This document shows, piece by piece, positions 1 to 62,053 of a DNA stretch of 64,000 nucleotides; the stretch's first letter is position 1; each line of letters begins with the position of its first letter. The DNA comes from Escherichia phage BYEP02. The notes beneath the pieces are model-generated. The model saw only the letters and a program-made list of their open reading frames with translations. It did not search any database and was not told the origin of the DNA. The position numbers were made by a program, and so were the translations under genes. The DNA is taken from sequence record OR757454.1; one strand, given 5' to 3'.

Positions 1-228
1 CGATTTGAAAATGGCATCACGGTTTCAATCACAATGGAAGGTTCCAACTTCAAAATTGCTTTGGATGATGATTTTCGTCAACGCGATTTAGGGACTCATC
101 CTTGCTGGAATGGCGTTAATCGCAAGCTTCTGGTTAAAACTTGGATTCGTCATATTCTGAGTAACAGAGCTAAACCTGAGCATCTTGAAGCAATCTTTGA
201 TGTAGTTCTTAACGAATTTGATATTTAA
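1..228 (+). CDS. hypothetical protein, 3' part (open reading frame runs off the left edge)
   Basis: Frame open from nt 1 to stop at 226-228; followed by GGGGCTTCGGCCCC hairpin. Confidence 0.4.
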   Translation, partial: RFENGITVSITMEGSNFKIALDDDFRQRDLGTHPCWNGVNRKLLVKTWIRHILSNRAKPEHLEAIFDVVLNEFDI

Positions 229-238
229 AATAAAAATG

Positions 239-254
239 AGGGGCTTCGGCCCCT
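239..254 (+). terminator. stem-loop AGGGGCTTCGGCCCCT (UUCG tetraloop)
   Basis: Perfect 6-bp GC stem after ORF stop; no strong U-tract. Confidence 0.4.
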
Positions 255-269
255 ATTGAGGAAAATATT

Positions 270-557
270 ATGTTTATGACTACTTATTTTGATACCCGCA
301 AAAATTTCTGTGAAGTTGTTTTCTCTAAGGCGCCTAAAGACCTTCCTGCACATTTGCAACCTACTAGCGAATCGATTAAAAACTACGTTGATGTGGTTTG
401 TCCTTTAGAGTTTCGTACTGTAAATGGGCGCGATACTTTAGCTATCACTAAACTCAATCGTGAAATTGACATTGACCCTTCAATTGCGCGCGAAATTAAT
501 ATCTCTGATATTGGTGGCGGTAATGTTAAATCGCACGGTTTTCAGATGAGGTTCTAA
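270..557 (+). CDS. hypothetical protein (95 aa)
   Basis: ORF with upstream GAGG RBS; position in small-gene cluster upstream of ligase. Confidence 0.5.
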   Translation: MFMTTYFDTRKNFCEVVFSKAPKDLPAHLQPTSESIKNYVDVVCPLEFRTVNGRDTLAITKLNREIDIDPSIAREINISDIGGGNVKSHGFQMRF

Positions 558-754
558 TGAAATTCTTTTTAGGTCAAACTGTTGAATTAAAGGGAGTTGG
601 TATACCTGGATTAATTTCTAAGGTTCTACCTCCATTTAAATGGAGTGGTATTCAAATAAAAGAGGCTTATATTGTTTCCTGGGTAGATGGAAATGAAGAC
701 CTTCGTATGGGTGATGAATTATCTCCTATCTACGGATTAAAGGAATTAGTATGA
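557..754 (+). CDS. hypothetical protein (65 aa)
   Basis: ORF; start overlaps previous stop (ATGA-type coupling). Confidence 0.45.
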   Translation: MKFFLGQTVELKGVGIPGLISKVLPPFKWSGIQIKEAYIVSWVDGNEDLRMGDELSPIYGLKELV

Positions 755-957
755 ATATAATTAATAAGATTTTTGGAATTCAGTACATTAAGGTCACATA
801 TAAAGTAACAGATAAAAATCCATATACTGATGAACATGAAGAACCACGAGTTGAGTCTATTATATTAGAAAAGGACCCTAACTGGCCAGTTGAATTTCGT
901 CTTCCTTGCTATGGTCATTGGGCTGATGTTGAAATTATAAGCATTGAAAATGTCTGA
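751..957 (+). CDS. hypothetical protein (68 aa)
   Basis: ORF overlapping previous stop. Confidence 0.45.
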   Translation: MNIINKIFGIQYIKVTYKVTDKNPYTDEHEEPRVESIILEKDPNWPVEFRLPCYGHWADVEIISIENV

Positions 958-1485
958 GTTAGAGATTAGAAGCAATTTTAGGTGGCCATCATGTGCATTA
1001 AGTAATTTCGCCCAATGGCCTTTCGTTATGGATGGTATTCAATTTGGAGGTCTTGAAGGATTCCTCCAAGGATGCAAGGTGAAAAACGTTGAACAACAAC
1101 GTCGTATATTTGGGTTATCTGGGCTTGCCGCTCAACAAGCTGGAAGGTCTTATGCTAGAGCTCAGGACCGTGGGACCCTCTTCTGGCTTGGAGTTCCGTT
1201 TTCAAGATACTCCCCGGCGTGGAAAGAATTATACACAAATGCATATTTTGAAGCAGCGTTCCAAAACAAGGGTTTTCGCGATGCATTACAAGCCTCGAAA
1301 GGAAAAGTTTTGAAGCACAGCATGGCTAGTGGTCTAACAAAAGATGATACTTTCGTGATGCATTACAAGCCTCGAAAGGAAAAGTTTTGAAGCACAGCAT
1401 GGCTAGTGGTCTAACAAAAGATGATACAATACTAACCGAAGCTGAATTTATTGATGTGTTAAACCTATTAAGAGACTCTCTATGA
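944..1485 (+). CDS. NADAR-like (YbiA/DUF1768-like) domain protein, frameshifted by a 77-nt duplication
   Basis: LSNFAQWPFVMDGIQFGGLEGFLQGCK resembles the NADAR motif FSNFA.WP..DG..W..EH.FQA.K from memory; reading one duplicate copy restores the frame to stop at 1483-1485. Confidence 0.4.
1274..1427. repeat. 77-nt tandem duplication
   Basis: Copies 1274-1350 and 1351-1427, 1 mismatch; in NADAR-like ORF. Confidence 0.9.
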
Positions 1486-2321
1486 AGCCTACTATTTTAA
1501 CTGATATTGATGGAGTGTGTTTAAGCTGGCAATCAGGCCTTCCTTATTTTGCTCAGAAATATAATCTTCCGTTGGAACATATTTTAAAAATGATCCAAGA
1601 TGAAAAATTTATTTCTCCTGGTAAACTTTTTAATTGTGATGAAGAACTTGGTGTCAAGTTAATTGAAAAATACAATCGTTCAGATTTTATTCGTTACTTG
1701 TCTCCATATAAAGATGCTCTGTGTGTAATTAACAAATTAAAAGAAGATTATAATTTTGTAGCTGTTACAGCGCTGGGTGATTCTATTGACGCTCTGCTGA
1801 ATCGTCAATTTAATTTGAATGCTCTTTTTCCTGGTGCCTTCTCAGAAGTACTGATGTGTGGTCATGATTCTTCAAAAGAAGAGTTGTTCAAAAAGGCAAA
1901 AGAGAAATATAACGTAATTTGTTATATTGACGATCTCGCTCACCACTGCGATCACGCGAGTGAAATATTAAGTGTTCCTGTTTATTGGATGGCTCGAGGG
2001 GAACGTGACAGTATTCCAAAAACTGCTCAGCGAGTTTATACATGGAACGATGTAGAGAATAAGCTTTTTTCACCAAAGGAAAATAAAGAAAGTTTTGATA
2101 GTGAAAAAGCTATAAAAGATGTAATTGAAAAGATGATTAAAAACGATTCTTTTCGTTGGAACACTACCTGGAGAACTCCTGGATTTAATCCTTATAATCA
2201 TCTATATCATCCATATCAGACACATCCGTTTCAGACATGGAACTATATTAAACCCGGCGGTATAGAGTATTTGTATAATAGACTTACTAGTGGTGATAAT
2301 ATTTTCCAAGGAGCATTCTAA
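1482..2321 (+). CDS. HAD-superfamily hydrolase-like protein (279 aa)
   Basis: N-terminal ILTDIDGV matches HAD motif I (DxDxT/V); later YIDD motif. Confidence 0.5.
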   Translation: MKPTILTDIDGVCLSWQSGLPYFAQKYNLPLEHILKMIQDEKFISPGKLFNCDEELGVKLIEKYNRSDFIRYLSPYKDALCVINKLKEDYNFVAVTALGDSIDALLNRQFNLNALFPGAFSEVLMCGHDSSKEELFKKAKEKYNVICYIDDLAHHCDHASEILSVPVYWMARGERDSIPKTAQRVYTWNDVENKLFSPKENKESFDSEKAIKDVIEKMIKNDSFRWNTTWRTPGFNPYNHLYHPYQTHPFQTWNYIKPGGIEYLYNRLTSGDNIFQGAF

Positions 2322-2587
2322 TGTTTGTCGTTCACACTATTTATGAAAATGAAGGTAATACTACACGTGATTACGGTCACGTAAATCAATTTTTTAGATG
2401 CAATCCAGAATTCCGAGCTCAAAAAGACGAACGAATTTTTAAAAAATGTGTAGAGCAAGGTTTCATTTACGTCAAGCACTGGATGCAAGGAAATAAAGTT
2501 AGAACTACATATCATAAGTCTTTGCCTGAGCTTAATGATGAATTGATTTATAATAGAGCTGTAAACCAAACTCTGAAGGATGAATAA
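2321..2587 (+). CDS. hypothetical protein (88 aa)
   Basis: ORF immediately upstream of ligase. Confidence 0.5.
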   Translation: MFVVHTIYENEGNTTRDYGHVNQFFRCNPEFRAQKDERIFKKCVEQGFIYVKHWMQGNKVRTTYHKSLPELNDELIYNRAVNQTLKDE

Positions 2588-4050
2588 TGATTCTTAAAAT
2601 TCTGAATGAAATAGCATCTATTGGTTCAACTAAGCAGAAGCAAGCAATTCTTGAAAAGAATAAAGATAATGAATTGCTTAAACGAGTATATCGTCTGACT
2701 TATTCTCGTGGGTTGCAGTATTATATCAAGAAATGGCCTAAACCTGGTATTGCTACCCAGAGTTTTGGAATGCTGACCATTACCGATATGCTTGACTTCA
2801 TTGAATTCACGTTAGCTACTCGGAAATTGACTGGAAATGCTGCAATTGAGGAATTGACTGGATATATCACCGATGGTAAAAAGGATGATGTTGAAGTTTT
2901 GCGTCGAGTTATGATGCGAGACCTTGAATGCGGTGCTTCAGTATCTATTGCAAACAAAGTTTGGCCAGGTTTAATTCCTGAACAACCTCAAATGCTGGCA
3001 AGTTCTTATGATGAAAAAGGCATTAGTAAGAATATCAAGTTTCCAGCTTTTGCACAGTTAAAAGCAGATGGAGCTCGGTGTTTTGCTGAAGTCCGAGGTG
3101 ATGAATTAGATGATGTTCGTCTTTTATCACGAGCTGGTAATGAATATCTAGGATTAGATCTTCTTAAGGAAGAATTAATCAAAATGACTGCTGAAGCCCG
3201 CCAGATTCATCCAGAAGGTGTGTTAATTGATGGCGAATTGGTATACCATGAGCAAGTTAAAAAGGAACCAGAAGGACTAGATTTTCTTTTTGATGCTTAT
3301 CCTGAAATTAGTAAAGCTAAAGAATTCGCCGAAGTAGCGGAATCTCGTACTACTTCTAATGGAATCGCCAATAAATCCTTAAAAGGAACCATTTCTGAAA
3401 AAGAAGCTCAATGTATGAAGTTTCAGGTCTGGGATTATGTCCCGTTGGTAGAAATATACGGTCTTCCGGCGTTTCGTTTAAAATATGATGTACGTTTTTC
3501 TAAACTAGAACAAATGACATCAGGATATGATAAAGTAATTTTAATTGAAAACCAGGTAGTAAATAACCTAGATGAAGCTAAGGTAATTTATAAAAAGTAT
3601 ATTGACCAAGGTCTTGAAGGTATTATTCTCAAAAATATCGATGGATTATGGGAAAATGCTCGTTCAAAAAATCTCTATAAATTTAAAGAAGTAATTGATG
3701 TTGATTTAAAAATTGTAGGAATTTATCCTCACCGTAAAGACCCTACTAAAGCAGGTGGATTTATTCTTGAGTCAGAGTGTGGAAAAATTAAGGTAAATGC
3801 TGGTTCAGGCTTAAAAGATAAAGCCGGTGTAAAATCGCATGAACTTGACCGTACTCGCATTATGGAAAACCAAAATTATTATATTGGAAAAATTCTAGAG
3901 TGCGAATGCAATGGTTGGTTAAAATCTGATGGCCGCACTGATTACGTTAAATTATTTCTTCCGATTGCGATTCGTTTACGTGAAGATAAAACTAAAGCTA
4001 ATACGTTCGAAGATGTATTTGGCGATTTTCATGAGGTAACTGGTCTATGA
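2587..4050 (+). CDS. 30: ATP-dependent DNA ligase (487 aa)
   Basis: Translation recognised as T4 gp30; KADGAR adenylation motif (KxDG); length 487 aa. Confidence 0.93.
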   Translation: MILKILNEIASIGSTKQKQAILEKNKDNELLKRVYRLTYSRGLQYYIKKWPKPGIATQSFGMLTITDMLDFIEFTLATRKLTGNAAIEELTGYITDGKKDDVEVLRRVMMRDLECGASVSIANKVWPGLIPEQPQMLASSYDEKGISKNIKFPAFAQLKADGARCFAEVRGDELDDVRLLSRAGNEYLGLDLLKEELIKMTAEARQIHPEGVLIDGELVYHEQVKKEPEGLDFLFDAYPEISKAKEFAEVAESRTTSNGIANKSLKGTISEKEAQCMKFQVWDYVPLVEIYGLPAFRLKYDVRFSKLEQMTSGYDKVILIENQVVNNLDEAKVIYKKYIDQGLEGIILKNIDGLWENARSKNLYKFKEVIDVDLKIVGIYPHRKDPTKAGGFILESECGKIKVNAGSGLKDKAGVKSHELDRTRIMENQNYYIGKILECECNGWLKSDGRTDYVKLFLPIAIRLREDKTKANTFEDVFGDFHEVTGL

Positions 4051-4235
4051 AAGCTTACTTAGAAACAATTGTCGTGGCTCAAAAAGAAGGTGGAGATGTT
4101 TCTACTTCTGTATCACAAGTCATTCTCGAATTTGTAGATGCATACGCTTATAATAAATTTACAGAAACATTTGATGCTTATGAAAAAGGTCCAAAGTTTG
4201 AAATATATCGTACTCTCTTACCTATAGATTATTAA
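4047..4235 (+). CDS. hypothetical protein (62 aa)
   Basis: ORF between ligase and alt; followed by AAGGCCTTCGGGCCTT hairpin. Confidence 0.45.
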   Translation: MKAYLETIVVAQKEGGDVSTSVSQVILEFVDAYAYNKFTETFDAYEKGPKFEIYRTLLPIDY

Positions 4236-4250
4236 AGGCCTTCGGGCCTT
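4235..4250 (+). terminator. stem-loop AAGGCCTTCGGGCCTT with downstream T-rich tract
   Basis: Between ORF 4047-4235 and alt. Confidence 0.45.
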
Positions 4251-4256
4251 TAATTT

Positions 4257-4264
4257 TATAAATA
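4257..4264 (+). promoter_or_regulatory. T4-type late promoter core TATAAATA (alt)
   Basis: Exact TATAAATA 21 nt upstream of alt ATG. Confidence 0.6.
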
Positions 4265-4284
4265 GAATAAACACTAGAGAGGAT

Positions 4285-6612
4285 ATGATGGAACTAATTA
4301 CAGAATTATTTGACGAAGATACTACTCTTCCGATTACAAACTTAAATCCAAAGAAGAAAATACCACAAATTTTTTCAGTTCATGTTGATGACGCAATTGA
4401 ACAACCAGGCTTTCGTTTATGTACCTATACATCTGGAGGTGATACTAATCGTGATTTAAAGATGGGCGATAAAATGATGCACATTGTTCCTTTTACATTA
4501 ACTGCTAAAGGTTCAATTGCTAAATTGAAAGGTCTTGGTCCAAGCCCAATTAATTATATCAATTCAGTTTTTACTGTTGCAATGCAAACAATGCGTCAGT
4601 ATAAAATTGATGCCTGCATGCTTCGTATTCTTAAGTCTAAAACCGCTGGTCAAGCTCGACAAATTCAAGTTATTGCTGATAGACTTATCCGTAGTCGTTC
4701 AGGTGGCAGATACGTCCTTCTTAAGGAACTCTGGGATTATGATAAAAAGTATGCATATATTCTTATACATCGCAAAAATGTATCACTAGAAGACATTCCA
4801 GGAGTTCCGGAAATTAGTACCGAGCTCTTTACTAAAGTTGAATCGAAGGTCGGTGATGTTTATATCAATAAAGATACTGGAGCTCAAGTAACTAAAAATG
4901 AGGCAATTGCAGCATCTATTGCAAGGTCGGTGATGTTTATATCAATAAAGATACTGGAGCTCAAGTAACTAAAAATGAGGCAATTGCAGCATCTATTGCA
5001 CAAGAAAACGATAAACGTTCTGACCAAGCTGTAATCGTTAAAGTTAAAATTTCCCGTAGAGCAATTGCACAAAGTCAATCATTAGAGTCTTCTAGATTTG
5101 AAAGTGAATTATTCCAGAAGTATGAATCTACAGCAGCTAATTTTAATAAACCAGCTACTGCACCTTTAATTCCCGAAGCAGAAGAAATGAAAATTGGAAT
5201 TAATTCATTAGCTTCTAAAACTAAGGCAGCAAAAATCATTGCCGAAGGAACTGCAGATGAACTTCATTATGACTATAAATTCTTTTCAAAAAGTGAGGTT
5301 AATGAAGTTTCTGAAAAAATTAAAGATGTAATTCTTAATGCGATTAAAAATGAACCAACCACTTCAATAAAATGTTTAGAGAAATACGCAGCAGCTGTTA
5401 ATCAATTCTTTGAAGAATATAAAGATAATTGGCTTGATAAACATAATAAAACACGTAAAGGACAGCCAGATGAAGTCTGGGAAGAAATAACTAAAAATTC
5501 CTGGAACGCGACAAAAACTAAATTCCTCAAAAGAATGATTTATAGTTTCTCTGGAATTGGTGCAGGTCCAATGATTGATATTACTATTGCCCGTGATGGT
5601 TCTAAATATACTCCATCACAAAAGCGCGGCATTAGAGAGTATTGCGGTTCAGGATATACTGACATCAATAATCTTCTTTTAGGACGCTACAATCCAGAAC
5701 GATATGATGTAATGAGTGAAAAAGAAATTGAATCTGCTATAAATAACTTAGATTCAGCTTTTGAAAATGGTGACCGCATACCGGAAGGCATCACAGTTTA
5801 TCGTGCTCAAAGCATGACTGCTCCTATATACGAAGCATTAGTTAAAAATAAAGTATTCTATTTCAGAAATTTTGTATCTACTTCTTTAACTCCTATCATT
5901 TTTGGACGTTTTGGATAGTTAAAAATAAAGTATTCTATTTCAGAAATTTTGTATCTACTTCTTTAACTCCTATCATTTTTGGACGTTTTGGAATTACACA
6001 TGCTGGTATTGGTCTTTTAGAACCAGAAGCTCGCAATGAATTAACAGTTGATAAAAATGAAGAAGGAATAACTATTAATCCAAACGAAATAAGAGCGTAT
6101 AAAGAAAATCCTGAATACGTTAAAGTTCAAATAGGATGGGCAATTGATGGAGCAATCCAAACGAAATAAGAGCGTATAAAGAAAATCCTGAATACGTTAA
6201 AGTTCAAATAGGATGGGCAATTGATGGAGCTCATAAAGTTAATGTTGTATATCCAGGAAGTCTCGGAATAGCAACAGAAGCTGAAGTTATTCTACCGCGT
6301 GGATTGATGGTCAAAGTTAATAAAATAACTGATGCTTCTAATAATGACGGAACAACATCTAATAATACAAAACTCATTCAAGCTGAAGTTATGACCACGG
6401 AAGAGCTCACCGAATCGGTAATCTATGATGGAGACCATTTAATGGAAACTGGTGAATTGGTTGCAATGACAGGTGATATTGAAATAGAAGACAGAGTTGA
6501 CTTTGCATCATTTGTTTCATCAAATGTTAAACAGAAAGTAGAATCATCTCTTGGAATTATTGCGTCTTGCATAGATATTGCAAACATGCCTTACAAGTTC
6601 GTTCAAGGATAA
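4285..6612 (+). CDS. alt: ADP-ribosyltransferase Alt, interrupted by three 77-nt duplications
   Basis: N-terminus MELITELFDEDTTLPITNLNPKK recognised as T4 Alt; TATAAATA late promoter 21 nt upstream; total length fits about 682 aa plus three 77-nt inserts. Confidence 0.8.
4846..4999. repeat. 77-nt tandem duplication
   Basis: Period 77 verified; in alt. Confidence 0.9.
5841..5994. repeat. 77-nt tandem duplication
   Basis: Period 77 verified; in alt. Confidence 0.9.
6075..6228. repeat. 77-nt tandem duplication
   Basis: Period 77 verified; in alt. Confidence 0.85.
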
Positions 6613-18671: not shown

Positions 18672-20167
18672 ATGACTTTTACAGTTGATATAACTCCTAA
18701 AACACCTACTGGAGTTATAGATGAGACTAAGCAGTTTACTGCTACGCCCAGTGGTCAAACTGGAGATGGACCTATTACCTATGCTTGGACTGTTGATGAT
18801 GCACCGCAGGAAGAAACGTCTGCAACTTTTAGTTATGTACTAAAAGGTCCTGCTGGACAAAAGACTATTAAGGTAGTTGCAACAAATCCAGTTCCTGATT
18901 CTGAAGCTGAAACAGCTGAAATTAGTACAACTATCACAGTTCAAAATAAGACACAAACAACTACTTTAGCTGTAACTCCTGGTAGCCCTGATGCTGGAGT
19001 GATTGGAACTCCAATTGAATTTACCGCTGCCTTAGCTTCACAGCCATCAGGTGCAAACGCTACATATCAATGGTACGTTGACGGTTCTCCTGTGGGCGAA
19101 GCAACTGGCACTACATTCAATTACACTCCTGACGCAAGCGGAGTTAAAACAATTAAGTGTGTAGCTCAAGTAACCGCGACAGATTATGATGCAAAGGAAG
19201 TTACTTCTAATGAAGTGTCACTGACTGTTAATAAGAAAACACAGACAACTACGTTAGCCGTAACTCCTGCTAATCCTCCAGCAGGAGTTATTGGAACCCC
19301 AGTTCAATTTACTGCTACCTTGGCTTCACAGCCACCAGGAGCGTCTGCTACGTATCAGTGGTATGTTGACGGTTCTCTGGTCGATGGAGAAACTACTACT
19401 ACATTTAACTATACTCCTACCACAGTTGGAGCTAAAACAGTTAAGTGTGTAGCGCAAGTAACTGCAGAAAATTACAATGAAAAGGAAGTTACTTCTAATG
19501 AAGTATCATTGACTGTTAATAAGAAAACAATGAATCCACGGGTTACATTGACTCCTCCTTCTATTAACGTTCAGCAAGATGCTTCGGCTACATTTACTGC
19601 TAATGTTACGGATGCTCCAGAAGAAGCACAAATCGAATATTCATGGAAGAAAGATTCTTCTCCAGTAGAAGGGTCAACTAATGTATACACTGTTGATACA
19701 TCATCTATTGGAAGTCAAACTATTGAAGTTACTGCAACTATTACTGCAACTGATTACGATAGCAAAACTATTACAGCAGAAGGTCAAGTTCAGGTAACTG
19801 ATAAAGTTGCTCCGGAACCAGAAGGTGAATTACCTTATGTTCATCCTCTTCCACATCGCACTTCAGCTTATATCTTGATAAAGTTGCTCCAGAACCAGAA
19901 GGTGAATTGCCTTATGTTCATCCTCTTCCACATCGCACTTCAGCTTACATCTGGTGCGGTTGGTGGGTTATGGATGAAATCCAAAAAATGACCGAAGAAG
20001 GTAAAGATTGGAAAACTGAAGATCCAGATAGTAAGTACTACTTGCATCGTTACACTCTTCAGAAGATGATGAAAGACTATCCAGAAGTTGATGTCCAAGA
20101 ATCGCGTAATGGATACATCATTCATAAAACTGCTTTAGAAACTGGTATCATCTATACCTATCCATAA
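18672..20167 (+). CDS. hoc: outer capsid protein Hoc with four Ig-like domains, one 77-nt duplication inside
   Basis: Ig-like repeats (TFTVDITPKTP...; QTTTLAVTP...) and capsid-binding C-terminus ...GIIYTYP; about 472 aa after removing the duplicate. Confidence 0.85.
18949..19542 (+). repeat. diverged in-frame 297-nt tandem repeat inside hoc (two Ig-like domains)
   Basis: Two 99-codon units NKKTQTTTLAVTP...EVTSNEVSLTVNKK, roughly 80-85% identical. Confidence 0.8.
19800..19953. repeat. 77-nt tandem duplication
   Basis: Period 77 verified; 3 mismatches, all synonymous; in hoc. Confidence 0.9.
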
Positions 20168-60249: not shown

Positions 60250-60323
<74 letters not shown>

Positions 60324-60477
60324 ATTTAATTTACTCCGTGTAGCTCAGTTTGGTAGAGCGTCTGCTTTGGGAGCAGAATGTCGCAGGTTCAAATCCTGCA
60401 ATTTAATTTACTCCGTGTAGCTCAGTTTGGTAGAGCGCCTGATTTGGGATCAGGAGGTCCAAGGTTCAAATCCTTGT
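60324..60477. repeat. 77-nt tandem duplication (diverged copies) over tRNA-Pro
   Basis: Period 77; 10 mismatches in the 3' 40 nt, arranged as compensatory pairs in the anticodon and T stems. Confidence 0.85.
60334..60400 (+). pseudogene. truncated tRNA-Pro-like copy lacking the 3' acceptor strand
   Basis: Copy 1 of a 77-nt duplication; 5' 37 nt identical to tRNA-Pro, anticodon and T stems differ by compensatory changes. Confidence 0.6.
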
Positions 60478-60484
60478 ATGGAGA
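60411..60484 (+). tRNA. tRNA-Pro (anticodon TGG)
   Basis: Acceptor CTCCGTG/TATGGAG (G-U pairs); anticodon loop TTTGGGA; T-arm GGTTCAAATCC. Confidence 0.75.
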
Positions 60485-60486
60485 CT

Positions 60487-60576
60487 GGAGGCGTGGCAGA
60501 GTGGTTTAATGCACCGGTCTTGAAAACCGGCAGTCGCTCCGGCGACTCATAGGTTCAAATCCTATCGCCTCCGCCA
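60487..60576 (+). tRNA. tRNA-Ser (anticodon TGA), type II
   Basis: Acceptor GGAGGCG/CGCCTCC; anticodon loop CTTGAAA; long variable arm; CCA encoded. Confidence 0.8.
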
Positions 60577-60685
60577 GTTTTGCTGATTTAGCTCAGTAGG
60601 TAGAGCACAGTCGCTCCGGCGACTCATAGGTTCAAATCCTATCGCCTCCGCCAGTTTTTGCTGATTTAGCTCAGTAGGTAGAGCA
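60532..60685. repeat. 77-nt tandem duplication over the tRNA-Ser/tRNA-Thr junction
   Basis: Period 77; one T indel between copies; makes a chimeric pseudo-tRNA. Confidence 0.9.
60583..60653 (+). pseudogene. chimeric tRNA fragment (Thr 5' part fused to Ser 3' half)
   Basis: Created by the 77-nt duplication at 60532-60685; no matching acceptor stem. Confidence 0.6.
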
Positions 60686-60735
60686 CCTCACTTGTAATGA
60701 GGACGTCGGCGGTTCGATTCCGTCAATCAGCACCA
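60660..60735 (+). tRNA. tRNA-Thr (anticodon TGT)
   Basis: Acceptor GCTGATT/AATCAGC; anticodon loop CTTGTAA; T-arm GGTTCGATTCC; CCA encoded. Confidence 0.8.
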
Positions 60736-61885: not shown

Positions 61886-61934
61886 AAACACTTGCCTTAG
61901 CAGGTGGAACCCCGACAAGGTTGCCGCAAGGCTT

Positions 61935-61962
61935 AGCCCCGACCGAAAGGTTGGGGCTTTTT
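61935..61962 (+). terminator. terminator-like hairpin AGCCCCGACCGAAAGGTTGGGGCT + T5 (81-nt unit, copy 1)
   Basis: GNRA-loop hairpin plus U-tract. Confidence 0.55.
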
Positions 61963-62015
61963 GGTATAACACTTGCCTTAGCAGGTGGAACCCCGACAAG
62001 GTTGCCGCAAGGCTT

Positions 62016-62043
62016 AGCCCCAGCCGAAAGGTTGGGGCTTTTT
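62016..62043 (+). terminator. terminator-like hairpin, 81-nt unit copy 2
   Basis: Same hairpin with two substitutions, plus U-tract. Confidence 0.55.
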
Positions 62044-62045
62044 AG

Positions 62046-62053
62046 TATAAATA
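62046..62053 (+). promoter_or_regulatory. late promoter core TATAAATA (internal-protein-like gene)
   Basis: Exact motif 37 nt upstream of ATG 62090. Confidence 0.55.

What the first reader, a model, noticed from the sequence alone, without database searches (positions are those of the whole stretch)
944..2321. NADAR-like and HAD-like genes sit just upstream of DNA ligase and the ADP-ribosyltransferase alt
ORF 944-1485 has an SNFAQWP...DG...E.FLQ..K motif reminiscent of NADAR (YbiA/DUF1768) domains, which in other systems process ADP-ribose or reverse nucleic-acid ADP-ribosylation. ORF 1482-2321 starts with a HAD motif I (DIDGV), suggesting a nucleotide phosphatase. Their position next to ligase and alt suggests a nucleotide or ADP-ribose metabolism module, possibly with a counter-defence role. 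Both assignments rest on short motifs only.
Basis: inference. Interest (0 to 1): 0.45.

Follow-up and report, generated by a model that had tools for sequence, protein, structure and literature searches.

The report
Known T4 adfN plus HAD phosphatase
These are the ordinary phage T4 genes 30.3 (adfN, an enzyme already shown to strip ADP-ribose from phage DNA and defeat the bacterial DarTG1 defence) and 30.2 (an uncharacterised phosphatase, probably a nucleotidase), and the break in the first gene in this sequence is an assembly artefact.

Summary
The window is a T4-like (Tequatrovirus) genome. The first ORF is T4 gene 30.3, also called adfN. It matches Pfam Phage_30_3 at E=8.6e-70 and is 150/152 aa identical to T4 AdfN once an artefact is removed. 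It carries catalytic E36 and K43 and the phage-type H123.

As written, the gene is not open from 944 to 1485. An exact 77-bp tandem duplication (1274-1350 / 1351-1427) shifts the frame, and the ORF stops at 1390. The window holds 53 such 77-bp duplications and none at other periods tested. Collapsing the first four restores colinearity with relatives and intact 30.3 and alt, so this is an assembly artefact.

The second ORF (1482-2321) is intact T4 gene 30.2 (271/278 identical). It has all four HAD motifs (D8xD10, T96, K132, D150D151) and a confident HAD fold with a C1 cap. It is nearest to NT5C-type 5'(3')-deoxyribonucleotidases. Its substrate is untested.

The proposed module is not supported. 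In nine distant loci the 30.2 homologue always sits by DNA ligase; a 30.3 homologue is nearby in only two.

The parts
950..1485 (+). Gene 30.3 / adfN (NADAR-family DNA ADP-ribosylglycohydrolase). It is 152 codons once one copy of the 77-bp duplication is removed. As written, the frame stops at 1390, giving a 146-aa product that lacks the C-terminal helix.
   Evidence: Pfam PF08010 E=8.6e-70. 150/152 aa identical to T4 gp30.3. Function from PMC11825919.
1274..1427 (.). Exact-period 77-bp tandem duplication (copies 1274-1350 and 1351-1427, 76/77 identical). It is an assembly or concatenation artefact that frameshifts gene 30.3.
   Evidence: TRF and copy comparison. Listed best relatives span 1924 bases for 2001 query bases. 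The junction is not matched contiguously in any listed phage record and is absent from viral contigs. It is one of 53 such repeats.
1055..1078 (+). Codons for catalytic E36 (1055-1057, GAA) and K43 (1076-1078, AAG) of AdfN.
   Evidence: Sequence. E36 is invariant and K43 is conserved in at least 90% of the 39-sequence family alignment. E36A and K43A impair T4 AdfN.
1316..1318 (+). Codon for H123, the histidine in the last strand that marks phage gp30.3-type NADARs. It lies in the duplicated segment and is repeated at 1393-1395.
   Evidence: Invariant H123. Position confirmed. Family definition from PMC11125620.
1482..2321 (+). Gene 30.2, intact at 279 codons. Residues 1 to about 200 form a HAD phosphatase core with a C1 helical cap. 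Residues about 200-279 form a variable, low-confidence tail. The start ATG overlaps the 30.3 stop (ATGA).
1503..1511 (+). HAD motif I, D8-x-D10: nucleophile plus the Asp+2 general acid/base that marks phosphatases.
   Evidence: Invariant D8, D10 and G11 in 36 sequences. D and D are also invariant in 34 remote relatives.
1767..1934 (+). HAD motif II (T96, 1767-1769), motif III (K132, 1875-1877) and motif IV (D150-D151, 1929-1934).
   Evidence: K132 is invariant. T96, D150 and D151 are conserved in at least 90% of sequences.
2321..2587 (+). Gene 30.1 (DUF3045), between 30.2 and ligase.
   Evidence: Pfam PF11243 E=5.4e-63. T4 annotation.
2587..4050 (+). Gene 30, ATP-dependent DNA ligase (487 aa).
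   Evidence: 99% identical to the T4 and slur14 ligases. Annotation.
4285..6612 (+). alt (ADP-ribosyltransferase). It is split into three ORFs in the window by three more 77-bp duplications (4846, 5839, 6077). It is one 698-codon ORF after they are collapsed.
   Evidence: Annotation of the colinear slur14 gene.

Best explanation
The region holds the T4 early-region genes 30.3 and 30.2, in the usual T-even order 30.4-30.3-30.2-30.1-30(ligase)-alt.1-alt.

Gene 30.3 is adfN, a stand-alone NADAR enzyme. It hydrolyses the N-glycosidic bond between ADP-ribose and guanine in DNA. This undoes the modification that the DarT1 toxin of the DarTG1 defence system puts on phage DNA and lets replication proceed. 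That function is shown for the T4 protein, which is 98.7% identical, and is inferred here by orthology.

The frameshift in this copy comes from a 77-bp tandem duplication. It is a technical artefact of joining assembly segments without trimming k=77 overlaps, not a property of the phage.

Gene 30.2 is a Mg2+-dependent HAD-superfamily phosphatase with a C1 cap. The catalytic motifs and the fold are shown here. Its most likely substrate is a nucleoside or deoxynucleoside monophosphate, as in the NT5C 5'(3')-deoxyribonucleotidases. That substrate is inferred and untested. It is translationally coupled to 30.3 in T-even phages, but its evolutionarily stable neighbour is DNA ligase, not the NADAR gene.
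For: Identity of the region:
- 659 phage records match and 495 cover at least 80% of the query; the best are 99% identical Tequatrovirus genomes.
- The gene order matches slur14 and T4.

adfN:
- PF08010 at E=8.6e-70.
- 150/152 aa identical to T4 gp30.3, with E36, K43 and H123 present.
- The family profile hits YbiA 2b3w at E=0.0027.
- The AF2 model of a homologue has pLDDT 95. Its top three PDB matches are YbiA, P. nicotianae NADAR and G. lovleyi NADAR.
- Published genetics and biochemistry support the function (PMC11825919; PMC11125620; HIDEN-SEQ preprint).

Artefact:
- There are 53 tandem duplications of exactly 77 bp and none at 11 other periods tested.
- 77 is not a multiple of 3, so each shifts any reading frame it falls in.
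- Collapsing four of them gives one colinear alignment to slur14 over 6.6 kb and restores intact 30.3 and alt.
- The listed phage records match the junction only as two separate pieces, never contiguously.
- Mismatches between copies often lie 3 nt apart, like natural synonymous polymorphism between strains.

gp30.2:
- Invariant D8, D10, G11 and K132, and T96, D150 and D151 conserved in at least 90% of sequences.
- AF2 pLDDT above 90 for residues 1-190.
- Foldseek finds 96 PDB hits at E<=0.001. All of the 50 listed have HAD-superfamily folds, and the top hit is cdN 2jao at 2.3e-8.
- The profile hits cdN 2jao at E=0.024.
- 22 of 34 remote family members match Pfam NT5C, best 4.2e-10. Their profile hits the PDB nucleotide phosphatases SSM1, 3nuq, XMP phosphatase and mdN.
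Against: - A direct Pfam scan of the window's proteins hits neither NADAR PF08719 nor any HAD model. Family placement rests on profiles, models and transitive homology.
- 32 of the 53 duplications are imperfect. Simple concatenation of de Bruijn graph edges would not produce that. It needs the added assumption of a mixed-strain sample or a polishing step.
- T4 NADAR did not rescue E. coli from DarT1 toxicity when expressed without phage. Its in-vivo specificity is therefore not fully understood.
- No raw reads are available to prove the artefact.
Confidence: 0.85

Rival explanations
1. The 77-bp duplication is real. This phage carries a truncated, weakened adfN, like RB69, whose allele lacks the last 15 residues, and would be sensitive to DarTG1.
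For: As written, the product ends after residue 134 plus 12 foreign residues. It loses the helix 138-151 and the invariant L136, T137, E140, L145 and R149. Truncating T4 AdfN at the RB69 position reduces activity.
Against: 52 further duplications of exactly the same length are scattered over the 64 kb. Three of them break alt. None of the listed phage records contains the junction contiguously. A genome with a frameshift roughly every 1.2 kb could not be viable.
Confidence: 0.03
2. gp30.2 is a DNA-end 3'-phosphatase, or another end-cleaning enzyme, that prepares nicks for the adjacent DNA ligase. It would work like the HAD domain of polynucleotide kinase-phosphatase.
Against: gp30.2 has a helical C1 cap of about 75 residues (helices 16-86). 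From established knowledge of HAD enzymes, a cap goes with small-molecule substrates, and macromolecule-acting HADs such as PNKP lack one. Sequence relatives match NT5C, not HAD_PNKP. T4-like phages already encode PNK in the same region. Conserved adjacency may be inherited synteny.
Confidence: 0.15
3. gp30.2 works downstream of AdfN or Alt in ADP-ribose metabolism, for example by dephosphorylating a product derived from the released ADP-ribose, as part of one counter-defence pathway.
For: In T-even phages the 30.3 stop and the 30.2 start overlap (ATGA). Both genes have near-identical distributions across phage records: 1438 and 1510 records, with similar organism counts. Early co-expression of NADAR genes with ARTs in T4-like phages has been noted (PMC9503650).
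Against: A 30.3 homologue is near 30.2 in only 2 of 9 distant loci. Three loci anchored on 30.3 relatives lack any 30.2 relative, and profile comparison of the flanking genes is negative. AdfN alone, expressed from a plasmid, restores RB69 growth on DarTG1. HIDEN-SEQ on DarTG1 reports adfN, and 30.2 is not mentioned in that preprint.
Confidence: 0.1
4. gp30.2 is a non-phosphatase HAD enzyme (a dehalogenase or an epoxide hydrolase), or a catalytically dead HAD fold.
Against: Motif I is DxD with an invariant Asp+2. By established knowledge of the superfamily this residue marks phosphoryl-transfer HADs and is absent in dehalogenases. All four motifs are conserved over 36 family members, and the core residues over 34 remote relatives. 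Alignments to the dehalogenases have rmsd 7-9 A, against 4.4-4.8 A for nucleotidases.
Confidence: 0.02

Closest known systems
T4 AdfN (gp30.3), anti-DarT factor NADAR (PMC11825919)
   Same: 150/152 residues are identical. The genome position is the same. E36, K43, H123 and the C-terminal helix are all encoded once the artefact is removed.
   Different: Two substitutions (I104F, I125M). In the window as written, the gene is interrupted by the 77-bp duplication.
DarG1 / DarT1-associated NADAR antitoxins (BC4488 family; G. lovleyi NADAR, PDB 8bat)
   Same: Same fold (Foldseek rank 3) and the same chemistry on guanine-ADP-ribose in DNA.
   Different: The last-strand residue is Asp rather than the phage-type His. 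The bacterial proteins have fold extensions and sit in a toxin-antitoxin operon. AdfN is an orphan without a toxin.
E. coli YbiA (PDB 2b3w), YbiA family of NADAR
   Same: It is the best structural and profile match and shares the LSNF...DG...E.F.Q..K motif.
   Different: It has Glu in the last strand. It is linked to riboflavin-intermediate N-glycosidase activity and a LexA operon, and it does not protect against DarT1 in vivo.
5'(3')-deoxyribonucleotidases cdN/mdN and Pfam NT5C (PDB 2jao, 1mh9, 3bwv)
   Same: HAD core with a C1 cap and a DxDGV motif I. It is the top Foldseek hit and the only significant profile hit. Remote gp30.2 relatives match NT5C.
   Different: Identity is only 14-21%. 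The window protein itself does not reach any Pfam HAD threshold. It has an extra C-terminal tail of about 80 residues. Its substrate is untested.
Phage Dtm, the dTMP phosphatase of PBS1-like dU-DNA phages (PMC12697855)
   Same: It is a phage-encoded mdN-like nucleotidase used to reshape the dNMP pool. This is a precedent for the proposed role.
   Different: It comes from a different phage group and works in the context of a different DNA modification. No sequence comparison was made here.
T4 polynucleotide kinase 3'-phosphatase domain (PDB 1ltq, 5uj0)
   Different: It has no cap and acts on nucleic-acid ends. Only 126-131 core residues align.

Membership tests
NADAR superfamily (gp30.3 / phage NADAR subfamily) | [quoted passage not shown] | tested here: met
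   The AF2 model of the 87%-identical homologue P0103 has pLDDT 95. Foldseek against the PDB ranks YbiA 2b3w (E=5e-5), 8bau and 8bat first to third. The window's own protein could not be submitted because it is disrupted.
NADAR superfamily (gp30.3 / phage NADAR subfamily) | Conserved catalytic Glu and Lys (E36, K43 in T4 AdfN) | tested here: met
   GAA at 1055-1057 and AAG at 1076-1078. E36 is invariant and K43 is conserved in at least 90% of 39 sequences.
NADAR superfamily (gp30.3 / phage NADAR subfamily) | Histidine in the last beta-strand (phage-type, in place of Glu or Asp) | tested here: met
   H123 is invariant in the family and lies in strand 120-123 of the model. The definition is from PMC11125620.
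NADAR superfamily (gp30.3 / phage NADAR subfamily) | Significant match to the family's sequence models | tested here: met
   PF08010 Phage_30_3 at E=8.6e-70. There is no direct hit to PF08719 NADAR. The family profile hits YbiA at E=0.0027, and one family member (P0181) matches both Pfam models.
NADAR superfamily (gp30.3 / phage NADAR subfamily) | Intact C-terminal helix, needed for full AdfN activity | tested here: inconclusive
   It is lost in the frame as written, which stops at 1390. It is encoded at 1428-1482 and restored when the artefactual 77-bp copy is removed.
NADAR superfamily (gp30.3 / phage NADAR subfamily) | DNA guanine-ADP-ribose glycohydrolase activity and protection from DarTG1 | not testable with these tools
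   Reported for the T4 protein.
HAD superfamily phosphatases | Motif I DxD (nucleophile plus Asp+2) | tested here: met
   D8, D10 and G11 are invariant. D and D are invariant in remote relatives.
HAD superfamily phosphatases | Motif II Thr/Ser, motif III Lys, motif IV acidic pair | tested here: met
   T96 (at least 90% conserved), K132 (invariant) and D150-D151 (at least 90% conserved).
HAD superfamily phosphatases | Rossmannoid HAD core fold with a cap insertion | tested here: met
HAD superfamily phosphatases | Significant match to curated HAD sequence models | tested here: not met
   The window protein gives no Pfam or NCBIfam HAD hit. Among family members, 9 of 36 match Hydrolase and 5 of 36 match NT5C, all weakly.
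NT5C-type 5'(3')-deoxyribonucleotidases | Sequence membership (Pfam PF06941) | tested here: inconclusive
   The window protein does not match. 22 of 34 remote relatives of the same HMM family match, best 4.2e-10. The profile hits cdN at E=0.024.
NT5C-type 5'(3')-deoxyribonucleotidases | Dephosphorylation of dNMPs or NMPs | not testable with these tools
   No biochemical report on gp30.2 was found in the paper library.

The most novel reading that the evidence does not exclude
gp30.2 is not a housekeeping nucleotidase. Either it is functionally coupled to the phage DNA ligase, since the pairing survives rearrangements across at least four Straboviridae lineages, or it is a counter-defence enzyme that destroys a phosphorylated nucleotide-derived immune signal or toxic nucleotide. 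Its T-even-specific C-terminal tail, with the conserved G-I-E-Y-L...P-T motif, would dock it to a partner.
Probability: 0.12. Interest if true: 0.5.

Novelty: already known. Interest (0 to 1): 0.15.

Why it matters
- It shows that the motif-based guess re-finds a published anti-defence gene (adfN), so there is no new biology to claim for 30.3.
- Any gene call from this window has to be made after collapsing the 77-bp duplications. Otherwise adfN, alt and other genes that contain one of the duplications look like pseudogenes. A reader could wrongly predict DarTG1 sensitivity by analogy with RB69's truncated allele.
- The one open question left is gp30.2. It is a very widespread HAD phosphatase (1438 phage records) that keeps its position next to DNA ligase and has never been characterised.

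Tried and rejected
- Direct Pfam and NCBIfam scans of the two window proteins gave no NADAR or HAD hit, only PF08010 for 30.3.
- phmmer of single sequences against the PDB gave nothing significant.
A homologue was used instead.
- The duplication junction is not matched contiguously in any listed record of the phage collection and is absent from viral contigs. The exact gp30.2 protein is not on record in the contig index, so the source assembly could not be traced.
- Fusion proteins that contain the gp30.2-like domain (P0253, P0314, P0206, P0244, P0082 and others) have no recognisable partner domains.
- Genes flanking distant 30.3 relatives are not 30.2 relatives; hhalign probability is 0.2%.
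- Promoter and terminator scans of 1-4300 found no more than chance.
- Literature searches for gp30.2 found nothing. The '30.2' hits were unrelated numbers.

Full report
**What the window is.** The 2-kb stretch around the finding matches 659 phage records, 495 of them over at least 80% of its length. The best matches are about 99% identical Tequatrovirus (T4-like) genomes from Escherichia, Shigella and Yersinia phages. Compared with the annotated genomes of phage slur14 and T4, the + strand carries 30.6, 30.5, 30.4, 30.3, 30.2, 30.1, 30 (DNA ligase), alt.1 and alt, in that order. The finding therefore covers T4 genes 30.3 and 30.2.

**Checking the observation.** ORF 1482-2321 is intact as described: 279 codons, with 'DIDGV' at residues 8-12. 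The first ORF is not. The frame that opens at TTG 944 / ATG 950 stops at 1390.

The cause is a tandem duplication of exactly 77 bp (copies 1274-1350 and 1351-1427). The copies are 76/77 identical, differing by C/T at 1279/1356. In the listed best relatives the 2001-base query spans only 1924 bases, and the listed phage records match the junction only as two separate pieces. Removing either copy gives a 152-codon gene from ATG 950 to the TGA at 1483-1485.

As written, the product is 146 aa. It replaces the last 18 residues with 12 foreign ones. That removes the C-terminal helix (138-151 in the model) and five invariant residues (L136, T137, E140, L145, R149).

**The duplication is an artefact.**
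- Tandem Repeats Finder and a direct period scan find 53 tandem duplications of exactly 77 bp across the 64 kb. Their spacing is 223-5649 bp, with a median of 848.
- Of these, 21 are perfect and 32 carry 1-9 mismatches. None occur at 11 other periods tested.
- Because 77 is not a multiple of 3, each one shifts any reading frame it falls in.
- Three of them cut alt into three ORFs.
- Collapsing the first four turns five BLAST pieces into a single colinear alignment with slur14 (6.6 kb, 98.2% identity). That also restores a 152-codon 30.3 and a 698-codon alt.
- Mismatches between the two copies often lie 3 nt apart, for example at offsets 8, 11, 20, 32, 35, 47 and 50. This is the pattern of synonymous differences between natural strains.

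My reading is an inference from general knowledge that 77 is a common largest k-mer in short-read assemblers. Assembly segments from a mixed population of T4-like phages appear to have been joined without trimming their 77-base overlaps. I could not trace the source record.

**Gene 30.3.**
- The de-duplicated protein matches Pfam Phage_30_3 (PF08010) at E=8.6e-70, but not NADAR PF08719 directly.
- It is 150/152 identical to T4 gp30.3.
- A 39-sequence family alignment has invariant P13, A16-F20 (ALSNF), F25, E36-G37-F38, Q40 and H123, with K43 conserved in at least 90% of sequences.
- An AlphaFold model of an 87%-identical homologue has pLDDT 95. Its top three PDB matches are the NADAR structures 2b3w, 8bau and 8bat.

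The literature settles the function. In PMC11825919 the gene was renamed adfN (anti-DarT factor NADAR). The evidence reported there is:
- T-even phages with a full-length allele resist DarTG1, and RB69, whose allele lacks 15 C-terminal residues, is sensitive.
- Plasmid-borne adfN-T4 rescues RB69.
- E36A, K43A and the C-terminal truncation all impair it.
- The purified protein removes ADP-ribose from DarT1-modified DNA.

PMC11125620 defines phage NADARs ('gp30.3 proteins') by a histidine in the last strand. It shows in-vitro activity on guanosine-ADP-ribose, though no rescue of E. coli from DarT1 without phage. A transposon-sequencing preprint finds adfN conditionally essential on DarTG1. Early co-expression of NADAR genes with ADP-ribosyltransferases in T4-like phages was noted in PMC9503650. 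The NADAR guess is therefore correct and already known.

**Gene 30.2.**
- It is 271/278 identical to T4 gp30.2.
- It gives no Pfam or NCBIfam hit. It matches PHROG 420, 'unknown function', and weakly a polynucleotide-kinase PHROG.
- A 36-sequence alignment shows all four HAD motifs: invariant D8, D10 and G11; T96; invariant K132; and D150-D151. The Asp at +2 marks phosphoryl-transfer HADs rather than dehalogenases (established knowledge of the superfamily).
- The AlphaFold model is confident for residues 1-190 (pLDDT above 90). A helical insert at 16-86 directly after motif I makes it a C1 cap. The model is disordered from 233 to 279.
- Foldseek finds 96 PDB matches at E<=0.001. All of the 50 listed have HAD-superfamily folds, led by mouse cytosolic 5'(3')-deoxyribonucleotidase at 2.3e-8. 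The nucleotidases fit with the lowest rmsd.
- The family profile hits cdN at E=0.024.
- An exhaustive profile search finds 1440 cluster representatives. Of 34 remote ones, 22 match Pfam NT5C (best 4.2e-10). Their profile hits the PDB pyrimidine and XMP nucleotidases and mdN.
- A phage precedent exists: the mdN-like dTMP phosphatase of dU-DNA phages.

The phosphatase chemistry is therefore well supported. The nucleotide-monophosphate substrate is the best inference. The biological role is unknown, and I found no publication on gp30.2.

**The 'module'.** In T-even phages, 30.3 and 30.2 overlap by ATGA. Both genes are about equally widespread among phage records, at 1510 and 1438 records with near-identical organism profiles. 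Adjacency, however, is not conserved:
- In nine distinct distant loci that carry a 30.2 homologue, DNA ligase lies within about 700 bp in all nine. A 30.3 homologue lies within about 4 kb in only two: an Acinetobacter phage and Klebsiella phage KP15. The nine loci are metagenomic T4-likes, an Acinetobacter phage, a Shewanella-phage-like contig, Klebsiella KP15 and KP179, Aeromonas phage 65 and Vibrio PVA23.
- Three loci anchored on distant 30.3 relatives contain neither gene, and their flanking genes are unrelated to 30.2.
- AdfN works alone from a plasmid.

The stable partner of the HAD gene is ligase, not the NADAR gene or alt. Whether that reflects function or inherited synteny cannot be decided here.

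**Verdict.** The fold guesses are right, but the first is a rediscovery of published AdfN. The first ORF's coordinates hide an assembly artefact that would make the gene look inactivated. The ADP-ribose module idea is not supported. The only open item is the substrate and role of the ligase-linked HAD phosphatase gp30.2.

Noticed in passing
whole window, e.g. 1274, 4846, 5839, 6077, 10273 ... 62828: There are 53 tandem duplications of exactly 77 bp (21 perfect, 32 with 1-9 mismatches), roughly one per 1.2 kb, and none at other periods tested. Because 77 is not a multiple of 3, each shifts any reading frame it falls in. They look like untrimmed k=77 overlaps between joined assembly segments. 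Mismatches spaced by 3 nt suggest the segments come from different co-occurring T4-like strains.
   Followed up: partly
window 4285-6612: alt (ADP-ribosyltransferase) appears as three separate ORFs (4285-4968, 5187-5918, 6304-6612) only because of three 77-bp duplications. It is a single 698-codon gene after they are collapsed.
   Followed up: yes
window 2082-2318 (gp30.2 residues about 200-279); alignment A1 columns about 300-390: The C-terminal tail of gp30.2 is absent from many homologues of about 200 aa, variable in sequence and low in confidence. Many otherwise divergent tails share a short motif G-(G/T)-G-I-E-Y-L-x-x-x-P-T. It may be a docking peptide.
   Followed up: no
L003-L008, L012-L015 (distant T4-like loci): A gp30.2-like HAD gene lies next to, or within two genes of, ATP-dependent DNA ligase in 9 of 9 loci from several Straboviridae lineages, even where the surrounding genes differ. 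In Aeromonas phage 65 the order is gp32, 30.2, 'hydrolase', ligase.
   Followed up: partly
L001 4329-4709 (RefSeq NC_028448, phage slur14): The RefSeq CDS for gp30.3 starts at the internal Met27 (126 aa). That omits the invariant P13 and ALSNF(16-20) residues. The T4 record and the published residue numbering use the upstream ATG (152 aa).
   Followed up: partly
window 1089-1313 (+): There is an out-of-frame internal ORF of 74 codons inside gene 30.3. It corresponds to T4's annotated 30.3' ('internal translation in a different reading frame'). Its end lies inside the first copy of the duplication.
   Followed up: no
window 4047-4235: alt.1 (62 aa) matches the Pfam family 'Phage blade protein' (PF24647) at E=2.4e-29.
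   Followed up: no
window 18951-19529: A 288-bp tandem repeat with 2 copies, 80% identical. It is the only long tandem repeat that does not have a 77-bp period, and probably encodes repeated protein domains.
   Followed up: no
window 60319-60686 and 61887-62050: Period-77 repeats with more mismatches, one with an indel, lie in what looks like the tRNA gene cluster. There is also an 81-bp tandem repeat. These may be partly natural and not all artefact.
   Followed up: no
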